From an uncultured bacterium (GTDB taxonomy: Bacteria > Krumholzibacteriota > Krumholzibacteriia > JACNKJ01), in NCBI GenBank assembly GCA_963695095.1, contig CAVOFT010000001.1:1565881-1629880 (forward strand): a stretch of DNA of 64,000 nucleotides, read 5' to 3'. Below, piece by piece: positions 21,951 through 26,426 of the stretch. Position numbers and translations under genes: made by a program. Below the pieces are notes generated by a model, which did not search any database, was not told the origin of the DNA, and saw only the letters and a list, made by a program, of their open reading frames with translations. The first letter of the stretch is position 1. Every line of letters begins with the position of its first letter.

Positions 21951-24410
21951 ATGCCAGTGCCCGCATCCATCTTCGAGATCAAGTACCAGGACCGCCTGCT
22001 CCAGGTGGGCGAAGTGCTGCCCCTGCTGCCGCTGCGGGACGTCGTCGTCTTTCCGACGATGATCCACCCGCTGCTGGTGGGGCGGCCCGGATCGATCGCG
22101 GCGGTCGAGGACGCCATGCTCGCCGATCGGCTCATCCTCGTCGCCACGCAGAAGGACAAGGAGATGGACGAGCCGACGCCGGCGGACATCCATCGCACGG
22201 GCACCGTGGCGCACATCACGCAGCTGCTGAGGCTCCCCGACGGCACGATGAAGATTCTCGTCGAGGGCCTGGCCCGGGCGCGCGTGCGCCACTTCGTCCA
22301 GGAGGAAGGCTACTTCAAGGTGCAGGTGGCGCCGCGCCGCGAGAGCGTGCCGGCCGACGCGGAGCTGGACGCCCTCGTGCGCATGACCCGCGAGTTCTTC
22401 GGCGACTACGTGCGCCATCACAAGCGCATCGCCGAAGCCGTGCACGAGAGCATCACGGGCATCGAGGAGCCGGTGCTGCTGGCCGACACCGTCGCCACGC
22501 ACATCCCGGACAAGCTCGAGCTGAAGCAGACCCTGCTCGAGGAGGAGGACGTGGCCGCCCGCCTGCGCATCCTCGTGCGGGTGCTCAGCGAGGAAGTGGA
22601 GATCCTCAAGCTCGAGCGCAAGATCGAGAGCGAGGTGAAGAGCCAGGTCCAGCGCAACCAGCGCGAGTTCTACCTGAACGAGCAGCTCAAGGCGATTCGC
22701 CGGGAGCTGGGCCAGGACGGCGACGACGGCCGCGAGCTGGACGAGCTGGCCGTCGCCATCGAGGAGGCGGGCATGCCCGAGGACGTCGAGGAGACGGCCT
22801 TGCGCGAGCTGGACCGCCTGGCCAAGATGCCCGCGATGAGCCCCGAGGCCAGCGTGATCCGCACCTACATCGAGACGCTGGCCGCGCTGCCCTGGAAGAA
22901 GCGCACCCGCGATCGCCTGGACATCGGCCGCGTGCGCAAGAAGCTGGACGAGCGACCACTACGGCCTCGAAAAGGTGAAGGAGCGCATCGTCGAGTTCAT
23001 GTCGGTGATGAAGCTCACCCGCCGCAAGAAGACCAAGAGCCCCATCCTCTGCTTCGTCGGCCCGCCCGGCGTGGGCAAGACCAGCCTCGGCCGTTCGATC
23101 GCGCGACGCCATCGGCCGCAAGTTCTACCGTCTCAGCCTGGGCGGCGTGCGCGACGAGGCCGAGATCCGCGGCCACCGGCGCACCTACATCGGCTCGATG
23201 CCCGGGCGCATCGTGCAGGCCCTCAAGAAGGCGGGCACGCGCAACCCCGTCATCCTGCTCGACGAGGTGGACAAGCTGGGCATGGACTTCCGCGGCGATC
23301 CGGCGGCGGCCCTGCTCGAGGTGCTCGACCCCGAGCAGAACAACACCTTCAGCGACCACTATCTCGAGGTGGACTTCGACCTGTCCGAGGTGCTCTTCAT
23401 CACCACGGCCAACACCCTGCACAGCATTCCGGACGCCCTGCGCGACCGCCTGGAGATCATCCGCCTGCCGGGCTACCTGCAGCACGAGAAGCAGGGCATC
23501 GCCCGCGGCTTCCTGCTGCCCAAGCAGCTGCGCGAGCACGGCCTCAAGGACGGGCCAGCTCAGCATTCCGGACGCCACGCTCGAGCGCATCATCGACGAG
23601 TACACGCGCGAGTCCGGCGTGCGCAACCTCGAGCGCGAGCTGGCCACGCTCTGCCGCAAGGCGGCGGTGCAGATCGTCGAGAAGGGCCGCAAGCGGCTCA
23701 AGGTGGAGCCCGGCGATCTGGAGACCAACCTCGGCCCGCCGCGCTGGCTGCCGAAAGCGCTGGACAAGGTCAACGAGGTGGGCATCGCCACCGGGCTCGC
23801 CTGGACCCAGGTGGGGGGCGAGACGCTCAACATCGAGGTGCAGCTGGTCCCCGGCAAGGGCGAGTTCATCCTCACCGGCCAGCTCGGCGACGTGATGAAG
23901 GAGAGCGCCAAGGCGGCCCAGACCATCGTGCGCAGCCGCGCCGAGAGCTGGGGCATCGCCAAGGACTTCTTCACGGGCATCGACGTGCACATCCACGTGC
24001 CCGAGGGCGCCACGCCCAAGGACGGCCCCAGCGCCGGCGTCGCCCTGACCACGGCCCTGGTCAGCGCGATCACGGGCATTCCCGTGCACAAGGACGTGGC
24101 GATGACGGGCGAGATCACCCTGCGCGGCAACATCCTGCCCGTGGGCGGCCTGCCCGAGAAGACCGTGGCGGCGCAGCGGCTGGGCATTCGCAAGGTGCTG
24201 TTGCCCAAGGCCAACGAGAAGGACCTGCCCGAGCTGCCCGAGTCCGTGCGCAAGGGCTTGGAGCTGGTTTTCGTCGAGCACATCGACGAGCTGCTGGCCC
24301 ACGCGCTGGTGGAGTCGCCGGGGGGCATGCCGCGCGGCAAGGCGGGCAAGTCCGGCAAGCCGAAGCCGACGCCCGCGCGCCGGCGCAGCGGCGCCACCGC
24401 GCACGCCTGA
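21951..24410 (+). CDS. lon: Lon protease (three +1 frame changes)
   Basis: Lon N-domain, AAA+ (GPPGVGKTS) and S16 protease (PKDGPSAG) segments lie in frames 3, 1, 2, 3 successively; shifts near 22958, 23103, 23550. Confidence 0.9.
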
Positions 24411-24417
24411 GGCATTC

Positions 24418-25035
24418 GTGGGCCGCTTCGAGCAGCTGATCTACGAGACCAGCGCCCTCAGCCTGGGCGCCTGTCCGGGCGAGCCGTGGCCGGAGGTGGC
24501 CGTCTCCGGGCGCTCCAACGTGGGCAAGAGCAGCCTGCTCAACAAGCTCGCCGCTCAGAAGGCGCTGGCGCGCGTCAGCCAGCGGCCCGGCAAGACCCAG
24601 GCCCTGAACTTCTTCCGCCTGGGCGAGAGCCGCGCGCGCCTGGTCGATCTGCCCGGCTACGGCTATGCCGAAGTGCCGCGTGCGGTGCAGGACAAGTGGC
24701 GCCGCTTCATGAACGACTACCTGGAAGGGCGCGCCCAGCTCGCGGGGCTCGTGCAGCTCGTCGACTGCCGCCACGAGCCGACCGCGCTGGATCGCCAGAT
24801 GATCGACTGGCTGGCGGCCGGCGCGCGGCCCTTCCTGATCGTGCTCACCAAGGCGGACAAGCTGCCCCGCGGCCAGCGCCAGCAGGCTCTGGCTCGCGTG
24901 CGCGAGACCCTGGGGCTGGGGCCTGCGCAGCCCGTCCAGCTCTTCTCGGCGACGGACGGCACGGGGCGAGCGGAGCTGATCGCCTGGATCGACGGCCAGC
25001 TCGCGGCCTGGCGACCGGCGCCGGCGACAGGGTAG
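24418..25035 (+). CDS. engB: ribosome biogenesis GTP-binding protein YihA/EngB
   Basis: [13 protein letters not shown]-loop; follows lon as in many genomes. Confidence 0.85.
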
Positions 25036-25120
25036 CGTTGACAGGGCGGCAGGGGGCGTCTATCGTGGATCGGCTCGAAGCTCGGCCCTGCGGTCGGGCT
25101 CCGCAATGACGAGGAGAGCC

Positions 25121-26426
25121 ATGAGCGGCAAGCAGGGCAGCGCCACCGTGGTCATCGGCGGGCAGTGGGGCGACGAGGGCAAGGGCAAGCTCGTCGATGC
25201 CCTGGCCGCCCGGCACGATGTCGTCGTCCGCTACCAGGGCGGCGCCAACGCCGGCCACACGATCCGGGCCGATGGGCAGGAGTACATCTTCCACCTGATT
25301 CCCTCGGGCATCCTCATCGAGGGCAAGGACTGCGTGCTCGGGCCGGGCCTGGTGGTGGACCCGGTCACCCTGGCCGACGAGATCAAGGCCCTCAAGAAGC
25401 GCGGCATCTCGGTGGACGGCCGGCTCTTCCTGTCCGACGCCGCCCACCTGATCCTGCCCTACCATCGGCTCATCGATCGCCTCCAGGAGGAGGCGAAGAA
25501 GGGCCGCTCGATCGGCACCACGGGCCGCGGCATCGGGCCCGCCTATGCCGACAAGGTCTCGCGCACGGGCCTGCGGGCGGAGATCTTCCGCCTGGAGCCT
25601 GAGCGCTTCAAGCGCCTGATCATCGAGCGCACGATCGAGCAGAATCGGCGGATCGACGCGCTCTACCACGGCGAGCCGGTGAGCCCCAACGAGGCGGCCG
25701 AGAAGCTGCTGGCGGTGAAGGCCGTCATCGAGCCCCTGCTCGTGGACGCGGTGGACTTCCTGCACGAGGCCCTCGGCGCGGGCAAGCGCCTGCTGCTCGA
25801 AGGCGCGCAGGGCACGCTGCTGGACATCGATCACGGCACCTACCCCTACGTCACGAGCAGCAATCCCAGCATCGGCGGCGCGATCAGCGGCAGCGGCGTG
25901 CCGCCGTGCTGGATCGGCGACGTGGTGGGGATCTTCAAGGCCTACTGCACGCGGGTGGGCAACGGGCCCTTCCCGAGCGAGCTCACCGACGCCTCGCGGC
26001 GAGCTGCTGCGCCAGCGCGGCGCCGAGTTCGGCGCCACCACCGGCCGGCCGCGCCGCTGCGGCTGGTTCGACATGCCGGCGGCGCGCTACGCGGTGGCGG
26101 TGAACGGCATCAGCGTGCTCGCGATCACGAAGTTCGACATCCTGAGCGGCCTGGAGGAGATCGGCGTCTGCACGAGCTACACCGTGGACGGGGAGCCGCT
26201 CGCGCGCTTCCCGCGCGATGCGGCCACGCTCGATCGCGCGAAGCCCGTGGTGGAGATGCTGCCCGGCTGGCAGGAGGACATCAGCGAAGCCCGCCACCTG
26301 GAGGATCTCCCGGCGGCCGCGCGGGGCTACATCGACTACCTCGCCGAGCAGCTCGGCCTGCCGGTCGGCCTGCTCGGCGTCGGCCCGGATCGAAAACAGA
26401 TCCTGGACCTGGGCGCCGGCAGCTAG
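25121..26426 (+). CDS. purA: adenylosuccinate synthetase (one +1 frame change)
   Basis: GQWGDEGKGK P-loop; C-terminal third is in ORF 26073..26426; shift near 25995. Confidence 0.9.

What the first reader, a model, noticed from the sequence alone, without database searches (positions are those of the whole stretch)
21951..26426. Single-base frame changes in lon and purA; ~15 such events across the window
Seen from the ORF track: conserved proteins continue in an adjacent frame at lon (~22958, ~23103, ~23550, frames 3-1-2-3), purA (~25995), threonine dehydratase (~17245), FG-GAP gene (~295, ~975), repeat lipoprotein 28986..31755 (5 sites), lipoprotein 33678..35108 (2), DUF318 permease (~38200), flavoprotein 52115..53405 (~52860). 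Most are +1 shifts and appear to lie in non-homopolymer context. Inference: essential genes cannot all be pseudogenes, so these are most likely residual long-read consensus errors; gene calls on this contig will be fragmented.
Basis: partly seen in the sequence, partly recalled or inferred. Interest (0 to 1): 0.45.

Follow-up and report, generated by a model that had tools for sequence, protein, structure and literature searches.

The report
Single-base insertion errors split genes
Nineteen stray extra bases in this 64-kb stretch break lon, purA and six other genes that are otherwise intact, and they are almost certainly consensus errors of a long-read metagenome assembly, not biology.

Summary
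The window (about 70% G+C, third codon positions about 97% G+C) has at least 19 frame changes in 8 genes: lon 3, purA 1, a PALP threonine-dehydratase-like gene 1, an FG-GAP protein 2, a repeat/beta-helix lipoprotein 7, an SdrD_B lipoprotein 3, an ArsP_1 permease 1 and a Fer4/Pyr_redox flavoprotein 1.

Every one is a +1 single-base insertion. The three apparent -1 shifts are pairs of +1 insertions 7-22 nt apart. Deleting one base per site restores an uninterrupted ORF in every gene.

Nine sites were compared at nucleotide level with independent contigs of relatives at 80-96% identity. None of those contigs carries the extra base.

- The 201 lon codons that are out of frame still show dN/dS = 0.05 in the corrected frame.
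- There are no deletions and no decay-type nonsense codons.
- The sites share no motif.
- The sites are clustered (P about 3e-4).
- None lies in a long homopolymer.

The source is a 3.61-Mb single contig in NCBI and ENA, and its published gene calls are visibly corrupted. I conclude these are residual consensus insertion errors, so this is not a biological feature. The cause of the insertion-only bias cannot be settled without the reads.

One thing noticed in passing is real: a conserved in-frame TGA (selenocysteine) in a thioredoxin-TPR gene.

The parts
21951..24410 (+). lon (ATP-dependent protease La), 818 codons once three extra bases are removed. As deposited it reads as an 819-aa ORF whose residues about 335-535 are out-of-frame nonsense.
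   Evidence: The corrected protein is 95% identical to P0001. The public call P0022 lacks Pfam AAA.
22951..22953 (+). lon insertion 1. The window reads GAC GAGC GAC. Relatives read GAG-GAC (L081, L082, L083), GAA-GAC (L001) or GGC-GAC (L084). It is not a homopolymer extension under either reading.
23103..23104 (+). lon insertion 2. The window reads ATC GCGC GAC. Relatives read GCC-GAC (4 loci) or GCG-GAT (L084). It is not a homopolymer extension.
23555..23556 (+). lon insertion 3. The window reads GGGCCAG where L085 and L083 read GGGC-AG (C doubled to CC). It returns the reading to the original frame.
25106..26426 (+). purA (adenylosuccinate synthetase), 439 codons once one extra base is removed.
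   Evidence: The L085 orthologue is an intact 434-aa Adenylsucc_synt gene.
25992..25993 (+). purA insertion. The window reads GAC GCCT CGC where L085 reads GAC GCT CGC (C doubled to CC).
   Evidence: This and lon site 3 are the only 2 gaps in 3.4 kb at 95.9% identity.
17248..17251 (-). Insertion 7 codons after the ATG of a PALP (threonine-dehydratase-like) gene at 16312-17275.
   Evidence: Orthologues in L083 and L084 are intact at 320 and 319 aa.
298..311 (+). Insertion in an FG-GAP repeat protein that has a C-terminal T9SS sorting domain (gene 1-1886, 5' end cut by the window edge).
   Evidence: There is no close relative, so it is placed by G+C phase and the repeat pattern only.
965..975 (+). 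Second insertion in the FG-GAP protein.
29895..29910 (+). Insertion 1 of 7 in the repeat/beta-helix lipoprotein (28923-31755, 941 codons when corrected).
30822..30830 (+). Lipoprotein insertion 2 (FRRC | VVRWDF).
30994..30995 (+). Lipoprotein insertion 3 (TPNGS | TDCHYVG).
   Evidence: P0137 reads FFTPNGSTDCHYEGCISL.
31015..31017 (+). Lipoprotein insertion 4 (TDCHYVG | CISLNMDG). With insertion 3 it mimics a single -1 shift.
31380..31392 (+). Lipoprotein insertion 5 (GGRNQA | VGPHSLV).
31635..31640 (+). Lipoprotein insertion 6 (EDCRR | FC).
31641..31646 (+). Lipoprotein insertion 7 (FC | MSAGAAYSG). With insertion 6 it mimics a single -1 shift.
33783..33790 (+). Insertion between the lipoprotein signal peptide (MKRITLVAITLAALVPALVGC, frame 0) and the body of the SdrD_B/CBM96 lipoprotein (33678-35108).
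   Evidence: It is placed by G+C phase only.
34543..34544 (+). SdrD_B lipoprotein insertion 2. The window reads CCCGGCGGGC where L086 reads CCCG-CGGGC.
34553..34553 (+). SdrD_B lipoprotein insertion 3. The window reads TACGCTG where L086 reads TAC-CTG. It is not a homopolymer extension.
38233..38233 (+). Insertion of A in the ArsP_1 permease (37642-38956). The window reads CAGATCG where L086 reads CAG-TCG.
   Evidence: The L086 orthologue is an intact 438-aa gene.
52866..52867 (+). Insertion in the Fer4 + Pyr_redox flavoprotein (52118-53405). The window reads GCGCTTGCC where three JGI relatives read GC-TGCC.

Best explanation
The extra bases are errors of the deposited consensus sequence, not features of the organism. 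The window belongs to a 3.61-Mb single-contig metagenome-assembled genome of a Krumholzibacteria-like bacterium, so a single-molecule long-read assembly is inferred.

The consensus or polishing step left isolated single-base insertions at about 0.3 per kb, which extrapolates to roughly 1,000 in the genome. Each one shifts the reading frame by +1. Gene callers therefore emit truncated, split or chimeric proteins.

*Shown:*
- The insertions exist.
- All are +1.
- Removing them restores every gene.
- Relatives lack them.
- The affected sequence shows no evolutionary decay.

*Inferred:*
- The cause is technical.
- The assembly is long-read based.

*Speculative, on why only insertions occur:*
- An insertion-dominated raw error profile of the PacBio-CLR type, combined with thin coverage.
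- Or a consensus that stacks two alleles where co-assembled strains differ. The lon 22951-22953 reading GAGC is the gapped union of GAG and GGC, and the lon 23103-23104 reading GC[G][C] carries both alleles seen in relatives.
For: 1. All 19 of 19 events are +1 single-base insertions (sign test 4e-6).
2. One-base deletions restore stop-free ORFs in all 8 genes. Pfam profiles continue across the junctions.
3. Nine sites were checked against independent contigs of relatives: L085 at 95.9%, L084 at 92%, L081 at 91.5%, L086 at 86-90%, and L082, L083, L001 and L089-L091. None has the extra base. In the roughly 34 kb compared with L084, L085 and L086, the uncompensated indels inside coding sequence were these insertions. 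No uncompensated window deletion inside a coding sequence was seen.
4. lon shows no relaxed selection. It has 4-5 lineage-specific residues against 2-20 in relatives. The 201 out-of-frame codons have dN/dS = 0.05 (18 synonymous, 3 nonsynonymous differences).
5. The sites are clustered. Three pairs lie within 25 nt (P = 2.6e-4) and 7 lie within 1.9 kb (P = 1e-4).
6. The source contig is 3,610,528 bp, and its public gene calls are corrupted exactly as predicted (P0022, P0138).
7. No nonsense codons were found. The single in-frame TGA is a conserved selenocysteine codon.
8. Literature: residual indels in long-read assemblies truncate proteins (bioRxiv 10.1101/285049). PacBio raw errors run at about 8% insertions against 3% deletions (bioRxiv 10.1101/2021.08.23.457338). 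Collapsing allelic variants introduces INDEL errors (PMC8445201).
Against: - No reads and no same-strain sequence were available. The closest relative is only 95.9% identical, so strain-specific real insertions are not formally excluded.
- The sequencing platform and pipeline of the source are unknown.
- The error profile is atypical for nanopore or HiFi consensus. There are no deletions, and none of the 9 anchored sites touches a run longer than 3 bases, although the window holds 143 runs of 5 or more.
- The stacked-allele idea has only weak support. Three of 4 lon/purA sites fall on codons that vary between the two closest relatives, against a base rate of 0.2. There is no excess local divergence around the sites (Fisher P = 0.98).
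Confidence: 0.93

Rival explanations
1. The frameshifts are genuine recent mutations. On this view the organism, or the dominant clone sampled, is undergoing pseudogenisation, for example from a mutator with an insertion bias or a relaxed lifestyle. lon, purA, the permease and the surface proteins would then be truly inactivated.
For: - The insertions are in the deposited sequence.
- The closest comparators differ by at least 4% at nucleotide level, so they cannot exclude strain-specific changes.
- Surface lipoproteins and FG-GAP proteins are dispensable and could decay.
Against: - All 19 events are +1 insertions with no deletions, whereas bacterial pseudogene decay is deletion-biased (own knowledge).
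- Single genes carry 3, 3 and 7 hits, yet show no substitutional decay. Third-position G+C stays at 0.9-1.0 in every segment.
- dN/dS is 0.05 in the out-of-frame part of lon.
- No nonsense codons were found.
- Pairs of insertions lie 7-22 nt apart.
- The housekeeping gene purA is hit.
Confidence: 0.04
2. The shifts are decoded by programmed recoding, meaning +1 ribosomal frameshifting or transcriptional slippage/editing, so full-length proteins are made from the sequence as written.
For: All shifts go the same way (+1). The products would be intact if one base were skipped at each site.
Against: - Orthologues in every relative examined lack the extra base, so the 'signal' is not conserved.
- The 18 sites tested (site 33783-33790 was found later) share no k-mer, stop codon or slippery motif. 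The best k-mers occur in only 3-5 sites, partly because of overlapping windows.
- There are no long A/T runs for slippage.
- Seven events in one gene, and pairs 7-22 nt apart, would require implausibly efficient serial recoding.
Confidence: 0.01
3. The insertions are artefacts of strain collapse. This is a sub-type of the main explanation. Where co-assembled strains differ by a substitution, noisy read alignments represent it as insertion plus deletion, and the consensus keeps both alleles side by side.
For: - lon 22951-22953 reads GAGC, the gapped union of GAG (L081, L082, L083) and GGC (L084).
- lon 23103-23104 reads GC[G][C], the two Ala alleles seen among relatives.
- Three of 4 lon/purA sites fall on codons that differ between the two closest relatives, against a base rate of 0.195, which gives P of about 0.03.
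- Clustering in fast-evolving surface proteins fits microdiversity.
- The mechanism has been described for collapsed diploid PacBio assemblies (PMC8445201).
Against: - There is no excess of mismatches to relatives within 12 nt of the sites.
- Most sites can be parsed this way by construction, so the pattern is not discriminating.
- Within-sample strain variation could not be measured.
Confidence: 0.3

Closest known systems
Residual indel errors in single-molecule (PacBio/Nanopore) assemblies that truncate predicted proteins (Watson, bioRxiv 10.1101/285049; frameshift-correction tools such as proovframe, bioRxiv 10.1101/2021.08.23.457338)
   Same: Isolated 1-nt indels in a highly contiguous assembly. 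Conserved genes are split or turned into chimeric ORFs. Guided correction restores them. The rate is on the order of one per few kb.
   Different: Here the errors are exclusively insertions and are not tied to homopolymers. Polished nanopore and HiFi consensus errors are usually homopolymer-length errors with many deletions (PMC9262707 abstract). The platform of this assembly is unknown.
INDEL artefacts from collapsing allelic variants into one consensus (Cosentino et al. 2021, PMC8445201)
   Same: Frameshifts appear where nearby variants cause wrong read alignments. They vanish on phasing. They cluster in variable genes.
   Different: That case is a diploid eukaryote. Here the 'alleles' would be co-occurring strains in a metagenome, and the link rests on two suggestive sites only.
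Pseudogene-rich decaying bacterial genomes (for example Mycobacterium leprae and Sodalis-type symbionts; own knowledge)
   Same: Many frameshifted orthologues of housekeeping genes.
   Different: Those genomes show deletions, nonsense codons, relaxed dN/dS and loss of codon bias. None of these is seen here.
Programmed +1 frameshifting as in prfB (RF2) (own knowledge)
   Same: A one-base forward shift is needed to read the full protein.
   Different: prfB has a conserved CUU UGA C site with an upstream Shine-Dalgarno-like element, at one site per gene, conserved across taxa. Here there is no motif, no conservation, and up to 7 sites per gene.

Membership tests
Long-read assembly consensus indel errors | Single-base indels interrupt ORFs that are otherwise intact and conserved, and removing them restores full-length proteins. 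| tested here: met
   All 8 genes become stop-free. Corrected Lon is 95% identical to P0001. Pfam continuity holds.
Long-read assembly consensus indel errors | The indels are absent from independent, high-accuracy assemblies of the same or closely related genomes. | tested here: met
   Nine of 9 testable sites are absent in contigs at 80-96% identity. Caveat: none of these is the same strain.
Long-read assembly consensus indel errors | The sequence comes from a single-molecule long-read assembly. | not testable with these tools
   This is only inferred from the 3,610,528-bp contig that carries the window's proteins. The source record and platform were not identified.
Long-read assembly consensus indel errors | Reads do not uniformly support the consensus at the sites. 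| not testable with these tools
   No read data are available.
Long-read assembly consensus indel errors | Errors concentrate in homopolymer runs (typical of nanopore/HiFi consensus). | tested here: not met
   The longest run touching any of the 9 anchored sites is 1-3 bases, while the window holds 143 runs of 5 or more. This points to a different error source and does not count against an artefact.
Pseudogenes of a decaying genome | A mixed spectrum of lesions: deletions at least as common as insertions, nonsense codons, larger indels. | tested here: not met
   All 19 of 19 events are +1 insertions. No decay-type stop codons were found.
Pseudogenes of a decaying genome | Relaxed selection and loss of codon bias downstream of the lesion. 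| tested here: not met
   dN/dS is 0.05 in the out-of-frame lon codons. There is no excess of lineage-specific residues. Third-position G+C is about 0.95 in all segments.
Programmed +1 ribosomal frameshift or transcriptional slippage | The frameshift site is conserved in orthologues. | tested here: not met
   All relatives lack the extra base.
Programmed +1 ribosomal frameshift or transcriptional slippage | A shared slippery or stall motif (stop or rare codon plus stimulator), or a long homopolymeric run. | tested here: not met
   No k-mer is shared by most of the 18 sites tested. No run longer than 3 bases touches any of the 9 anchored sites.

The most novel reading that the evidence does not exclude
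The insertions are genuine. On this reading a natural Krumholzibacteria population, or the clone that dominated the sample, carries a very recent, strongly insertion-biased burst of +1 frameshift mutations, for example from a defective replication or repair function. The burst has just knocked out lon, purA and several envelope genes, too recently for any substitutional decay to accumulate.
Probability: 0.03. Interest if true: 0.55.

Novelty: not a real feature. Interest (0 to 1): 0.08.

Why it matters
Biologically it does not matter, because the genes are ordinary and almost certainly intact in the organism. It matters as a data-quality warning.

- This public 3.61-Mb genome probably carries on the order of a thousand such insertions.
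- Its deposited proteome contains chimeric and truncated proteins. One example is an 819-aa 'Lon' without an AAA domain that is already in protein databases.
- Completeness, pseudogene counts, metabolic reconstructions and any scan for 'unusual' ORFs on this contig will be distorted.
- The insertion-only, homopolymer-independent, clustered signature may help to diagnose the assembly or polishing step responsible.

Tried and rejected
- **Source contig.** Exact look-ups of the window's ClpX and of the public lon call, meant to find the source contig, returned nothing. The GTDB species-representative scan did not contain the source genome either; its best hit was 78% amino-acid identity.
- **Single -1 deletions.** I first read the junctions at about 31010, 31640 and 34534 as single -1 deletions. 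I rejected that reading. P0137 shows short middle-frame segments, TDCHYVG and FC. L086 shows two separate 1-nt gaps. The Pfam SdrD_B score is 101.9 bits for the double +1 against 95.5 bits for the single -1.
- **Shared motif.** A search for a methylation, recoding or slippery motif around the sites found no k-mer present at most sites.
- **Local divergence.** A test for raised divergence near the sites, as a signature of strain collapse, was null.
- **In-frame stops.** The in-frame stops flagged by the frame HMM were checked as possible nonsense errors. All are ordinary gene boundaries except one TGA, which proved to be a conserved selenocysteine codon.
- **HMM 'non-coding' stretches.** The stretches at 1886-2820 and 60597-61360 were checked for hidden frameshifts. 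They hold a small secreted-protein ORF and an oddly composed ORF between a gene whose C-terminus looks like DNA polymerase IV and a LexA-like gene. No frameshift was evident.
- **Literature.** A search for the source study found Krumholzibacteriota MAGs from nanopore activated-sludge work, but no link to this contig.
- **Rfam.** It found only two intact tRNAs.
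Full report
**What is in the sequence.**
The window is about 70% G+C and its third codon positions are 94-100% G+C, so the reading frame can be read from composition alone. A seven-state frame HMM over the whole window, checked against in-frame stop positions, gave every place where coding sequence continues on the same strand in another frame without a stop. Inside the finding's coordinates, lon runs frame 3 -> 1 -> 2 -> 3 with junctions at about 22953, 23103 and 23554. 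purA changes frame at about 25996. Deleting one base at each junction gives a continuous Lon and an intact 439-aa PurA.

**Full catalogue.**
The table gives the per-gene count.

| Gene | Sites |
|---|---|
| FG-GAP / T9SS protein | 2 |
| PALP threonine-dehydratase-like gene, 7 codons after its ATG | 1 |
| lon | 3 |
| purA | 1 |
| repeat/beta-helix lipoprotein 28923-31755 | 7 |
| SdrD_B lipoprotein 33678-35108 (one site separates its signal peptide from the body) | 3 |
| ArsP_1 permease | 1 |
| Fer4/Pyr_redox flavoprotein | 1 |

- The total is 19 events.
- Three junctions looked like -1 shifts. Homolog P0137 (67% identity) shows short middle-frame segments, FFTPNGS|TDCHYVG|CISLNMDG and EDCRR|FC|MSAGAAY.
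- L086 shows two separate one-base gaps at 34544 and 34553.
- Each of the three junctions is therefore a pair of +1 insertions.
- All 19 events are +1 single-base insertions.
- Removing one base per site gives stop-free ORFs for all eight genes.
- Pfam profiles continue across the junctions. ArsP_1 matches profile positions 3-149 and then 171-293. Pyr_redox_3 matches 1-48 and then 99-278. SdrD_B matches 1-112.

**Where the window comes from.**
A protein search with corrected Lon returned P0022, which is exactly the window's uncorrected frame-3 ORF.
- P0022 is 819 aa with a nonsense middle and no AAA Pfam domain.
- It sits on a 3,610,528-bp contig held by NCBI and ENA.
- The window's ClpX, EngB, lipoprotein fragment (P0138) and thioredoxin-TPR fragment (P0242) map to the same contig.

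The closest contigs are labelled Krumholzibacteria_VGXI01 in ENA. A single 3.6-Mb contig from an uncultured lineage implies a long-read assembly. That is an inference; the record itself could not be retrieved.

**Comparison with relatives.**
Independent contigs were fetched, several with SPAdes- or MEGAHIT-style names:
- L085: 95.9% nucleotide identity over window 23147-26543
- L084: 92% over 10717-23201
- L081: 91.5% over 20990-26009
- L086: 86-90% over 34210-50306
- L082, L083 and L001
- L089-L091: about 80% around the flavoprotein

L085 differs from the window by only two gaps in 3.4 kb, and those gaps are lon site 3 and the purA site. Across L084, L085 and L086 (about 34 kb), the uncompensated indels inside coding sequence were the window insertions at 17249, 22951, 23104, 23556, 25992, 34544, 34553 and 38233. 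No uncompensated window deletion inside a coding sequence was seen. The flavoprotein site is likewise an extra T that three JGI contigs lack. All orthologues in the relatives are called as intact genes.

**Nature of the inserted bases.**
At the nine nucleotide-anchored sites, the longest homopolymer touching the site is 1-3 bases. Four insertions copy neither neighbour:
- GAG[C]GAC or G[A]GC at lon site 1
- GCG[C]GAC or GC[G]C at lon site 2
- TAC[G]CTG at 34553
- CAG[A]TCG at 38233

The other five double an adjacent base. The window holds 143 runs of 5 or more bases, yet none of the anchored sites lies in one. No k-mer is shared by most of the 18 sites tested. The sites are clustered: three pairs lie within 25 nt (P = 2.6e-4) and seven lie within 1.9 kb (P = 1e-4).

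**Error or biology.**
- Against real pseudogenisation:
  - The spectrum is 19 insertions to 0 deletions (sign test 4e-6).
  - Single genes carry 3, 3 and 7 lesions with no other decay.
  - Third-position G+C stays high in every segment.
  - Lon has 4-5 lineage-specific residues, against 2, 8 and 20 in its nearest relatives.
  - The 201 codons that are out of frame as deposited show 18 synonymous and 3 nonsynonymous differences from L081, giving dN/dS = 0.05. That is the most constrained part of the gene.
  - There are no nonsense codons.
- Against programmed recoding:
  - The extra base is not conserved in any orthologue.
  - There is no motif.
  - Up to seven sites occur in one gene.
- The remaining explanation is a consensus artefact. 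This matches the literature on residual indels in long-read assemblies (bioRxiv 10.1101/285049).

**Why only insertions.**
This cannot be settled here, and there are two candidate causes.
- The first is an insertion-dominated raw error profile. PacBio continuous long reads run at about 8% insertions against 3% deletions (bioRxiv 10.1101/2021.08.23.457338). Thin or uneven coverage on top of that would also explain the clustering.
- The second is collapse of strain variants.
  - lon site 1 (GAGC) is the gapped union of the two codons seen in relatives, GAG and GGC.
  - lon site 2 (GC[G][C]) carries both Ala alleles seen in relatives.
  - Three of the four lon/purA sites fall on codons that differ between the two closest relatives, against a base rate of 0.195.
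  - This mechanism has been described for collapsed alleles (PMC8445201).
  - However, mismatch density around the sites is not raised, and most sites can be parsed this way by construction.
  - I therefore treat the strain-collapse idea as speculative.

**Verdict.**
The feature is an assembly artefact of a known kind with a somewhat unusual signature: insertion-only, independent of homopolymers and clustered. Confidence is about 0.93, limited only by the absence of reads or a same-strain sequence. Interest is low, except as a warning that this public genome and its deposited proteins are corrupted at roughly one site per 3.4 kb.

**Side result.**
The only in-frame stop inside a gene is TGA at 45564-45566 on the minus strand.
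- The context is LLEIGTSW-TGA-GSC, in a secreted thioredoxin-like/TPR protein.
- The TGA is conserved in L086 (90% amino-acid identity) and in L087/L088 (54%).
- It is followed by a hairpin whose sequence is identical in all three.
- The 16 closest homologues from other assemblies in the database are all called N-terminally truncated at that point, whereas distant homologues are full length with a thioredoxin domain.

It is a selenocysteine codon and not an error.

Noticed in passing
window 44538-45716, minus strand (TGA at 45564-45566): Probable selenoprotein with a signal peptide, a thioredoxin-like LLEIGTSW-U-GSC (UxxC) motif and TPR repeats.

- The in-frame TGA and a downstream hairpin (CCUUCGCC-CGUGA-GGUGAAGG, starting 14 nt after the UGA) are conserved in L086 (90% amino-acid identity) and in L087/L088 (54%).
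- The 16 closest homologues from other assemblies in the database are all N-terminally truncated gene calls of about 331-338 aa. Distant homologues with Cys are full length.
- Public gene calls split this gene (P0242).
   Followed up: yes
window 21951-24410 and 29818-31755: The corrupted ORFs are already in public protein collections as if they were real proteins. P0022 is an 819-aa 'Lon' with about 200 nonsense residues and no AAA domain. P0138 is a 618-aa lipoprotein fragment. Both sit on the 3,610,528-bp contig.
   Followed up: partly
window 22951-22953 and 23103-23104: At two lon sites the four-base 'codon' looks like two alleles stacked together. GAGC combines GAG and GGC, and GCGC combines GCG and GCC; all four codons occur in relatives. 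This hints that strain collapse, not raw read error, created some of the insertions.
   Followed up: partly
window 37352-43027: Arsenic/redox gene cluster: an HTH (ArsR-like) regulator, the ArsP_1 permease (frameshifted), a small thioredoxin-like protein, thioredoxin/DsbD-like genes, an LMW-PTP-type ArsC and an ACR3-like efflux protein. The same order is seen in L086.
   Followed up: partly
window 28923-30300: The N-terminal half of the lipoprotein holds four tandem domains of about 100 aa (PEDPAPCV.TVT.PNGGETW...DGSY.WT...GY.(I/V)R(I/V).DLES). They precede a beta-helix (chondroitinase-B-like) domain. The closest homologue, P0137, has only one such domain.
   Followed up: no
window 1-1886 and 26552-28693: Two large secreted proteins end in T9SS-type C-terminal sorting domains (FlgD_ig/Por_Secre_tail; ...NPFNP.T...). 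That fits an FCB-group/Krumholzibacteriota organism.
   Followed up: no
window 60650-61300: An ORF of about 215 aa (MIMREGGQIDLF...) has atypical codon-position composition. It lies between a gene whose C-terminus looks like DNA polymerase IV and a LexA-like gene (both named by eye, no family search), and may be an SOS-module gene. The frame HMM called it non-coding.
   Followed up: no
window 18359-26541: The order tRNA-Leu, tig, clpP, clpX, lon, engB, purA, tRNA-Lys is conserved in all relatives fetched. Both tRNAs are intact.
   Followed up: partly
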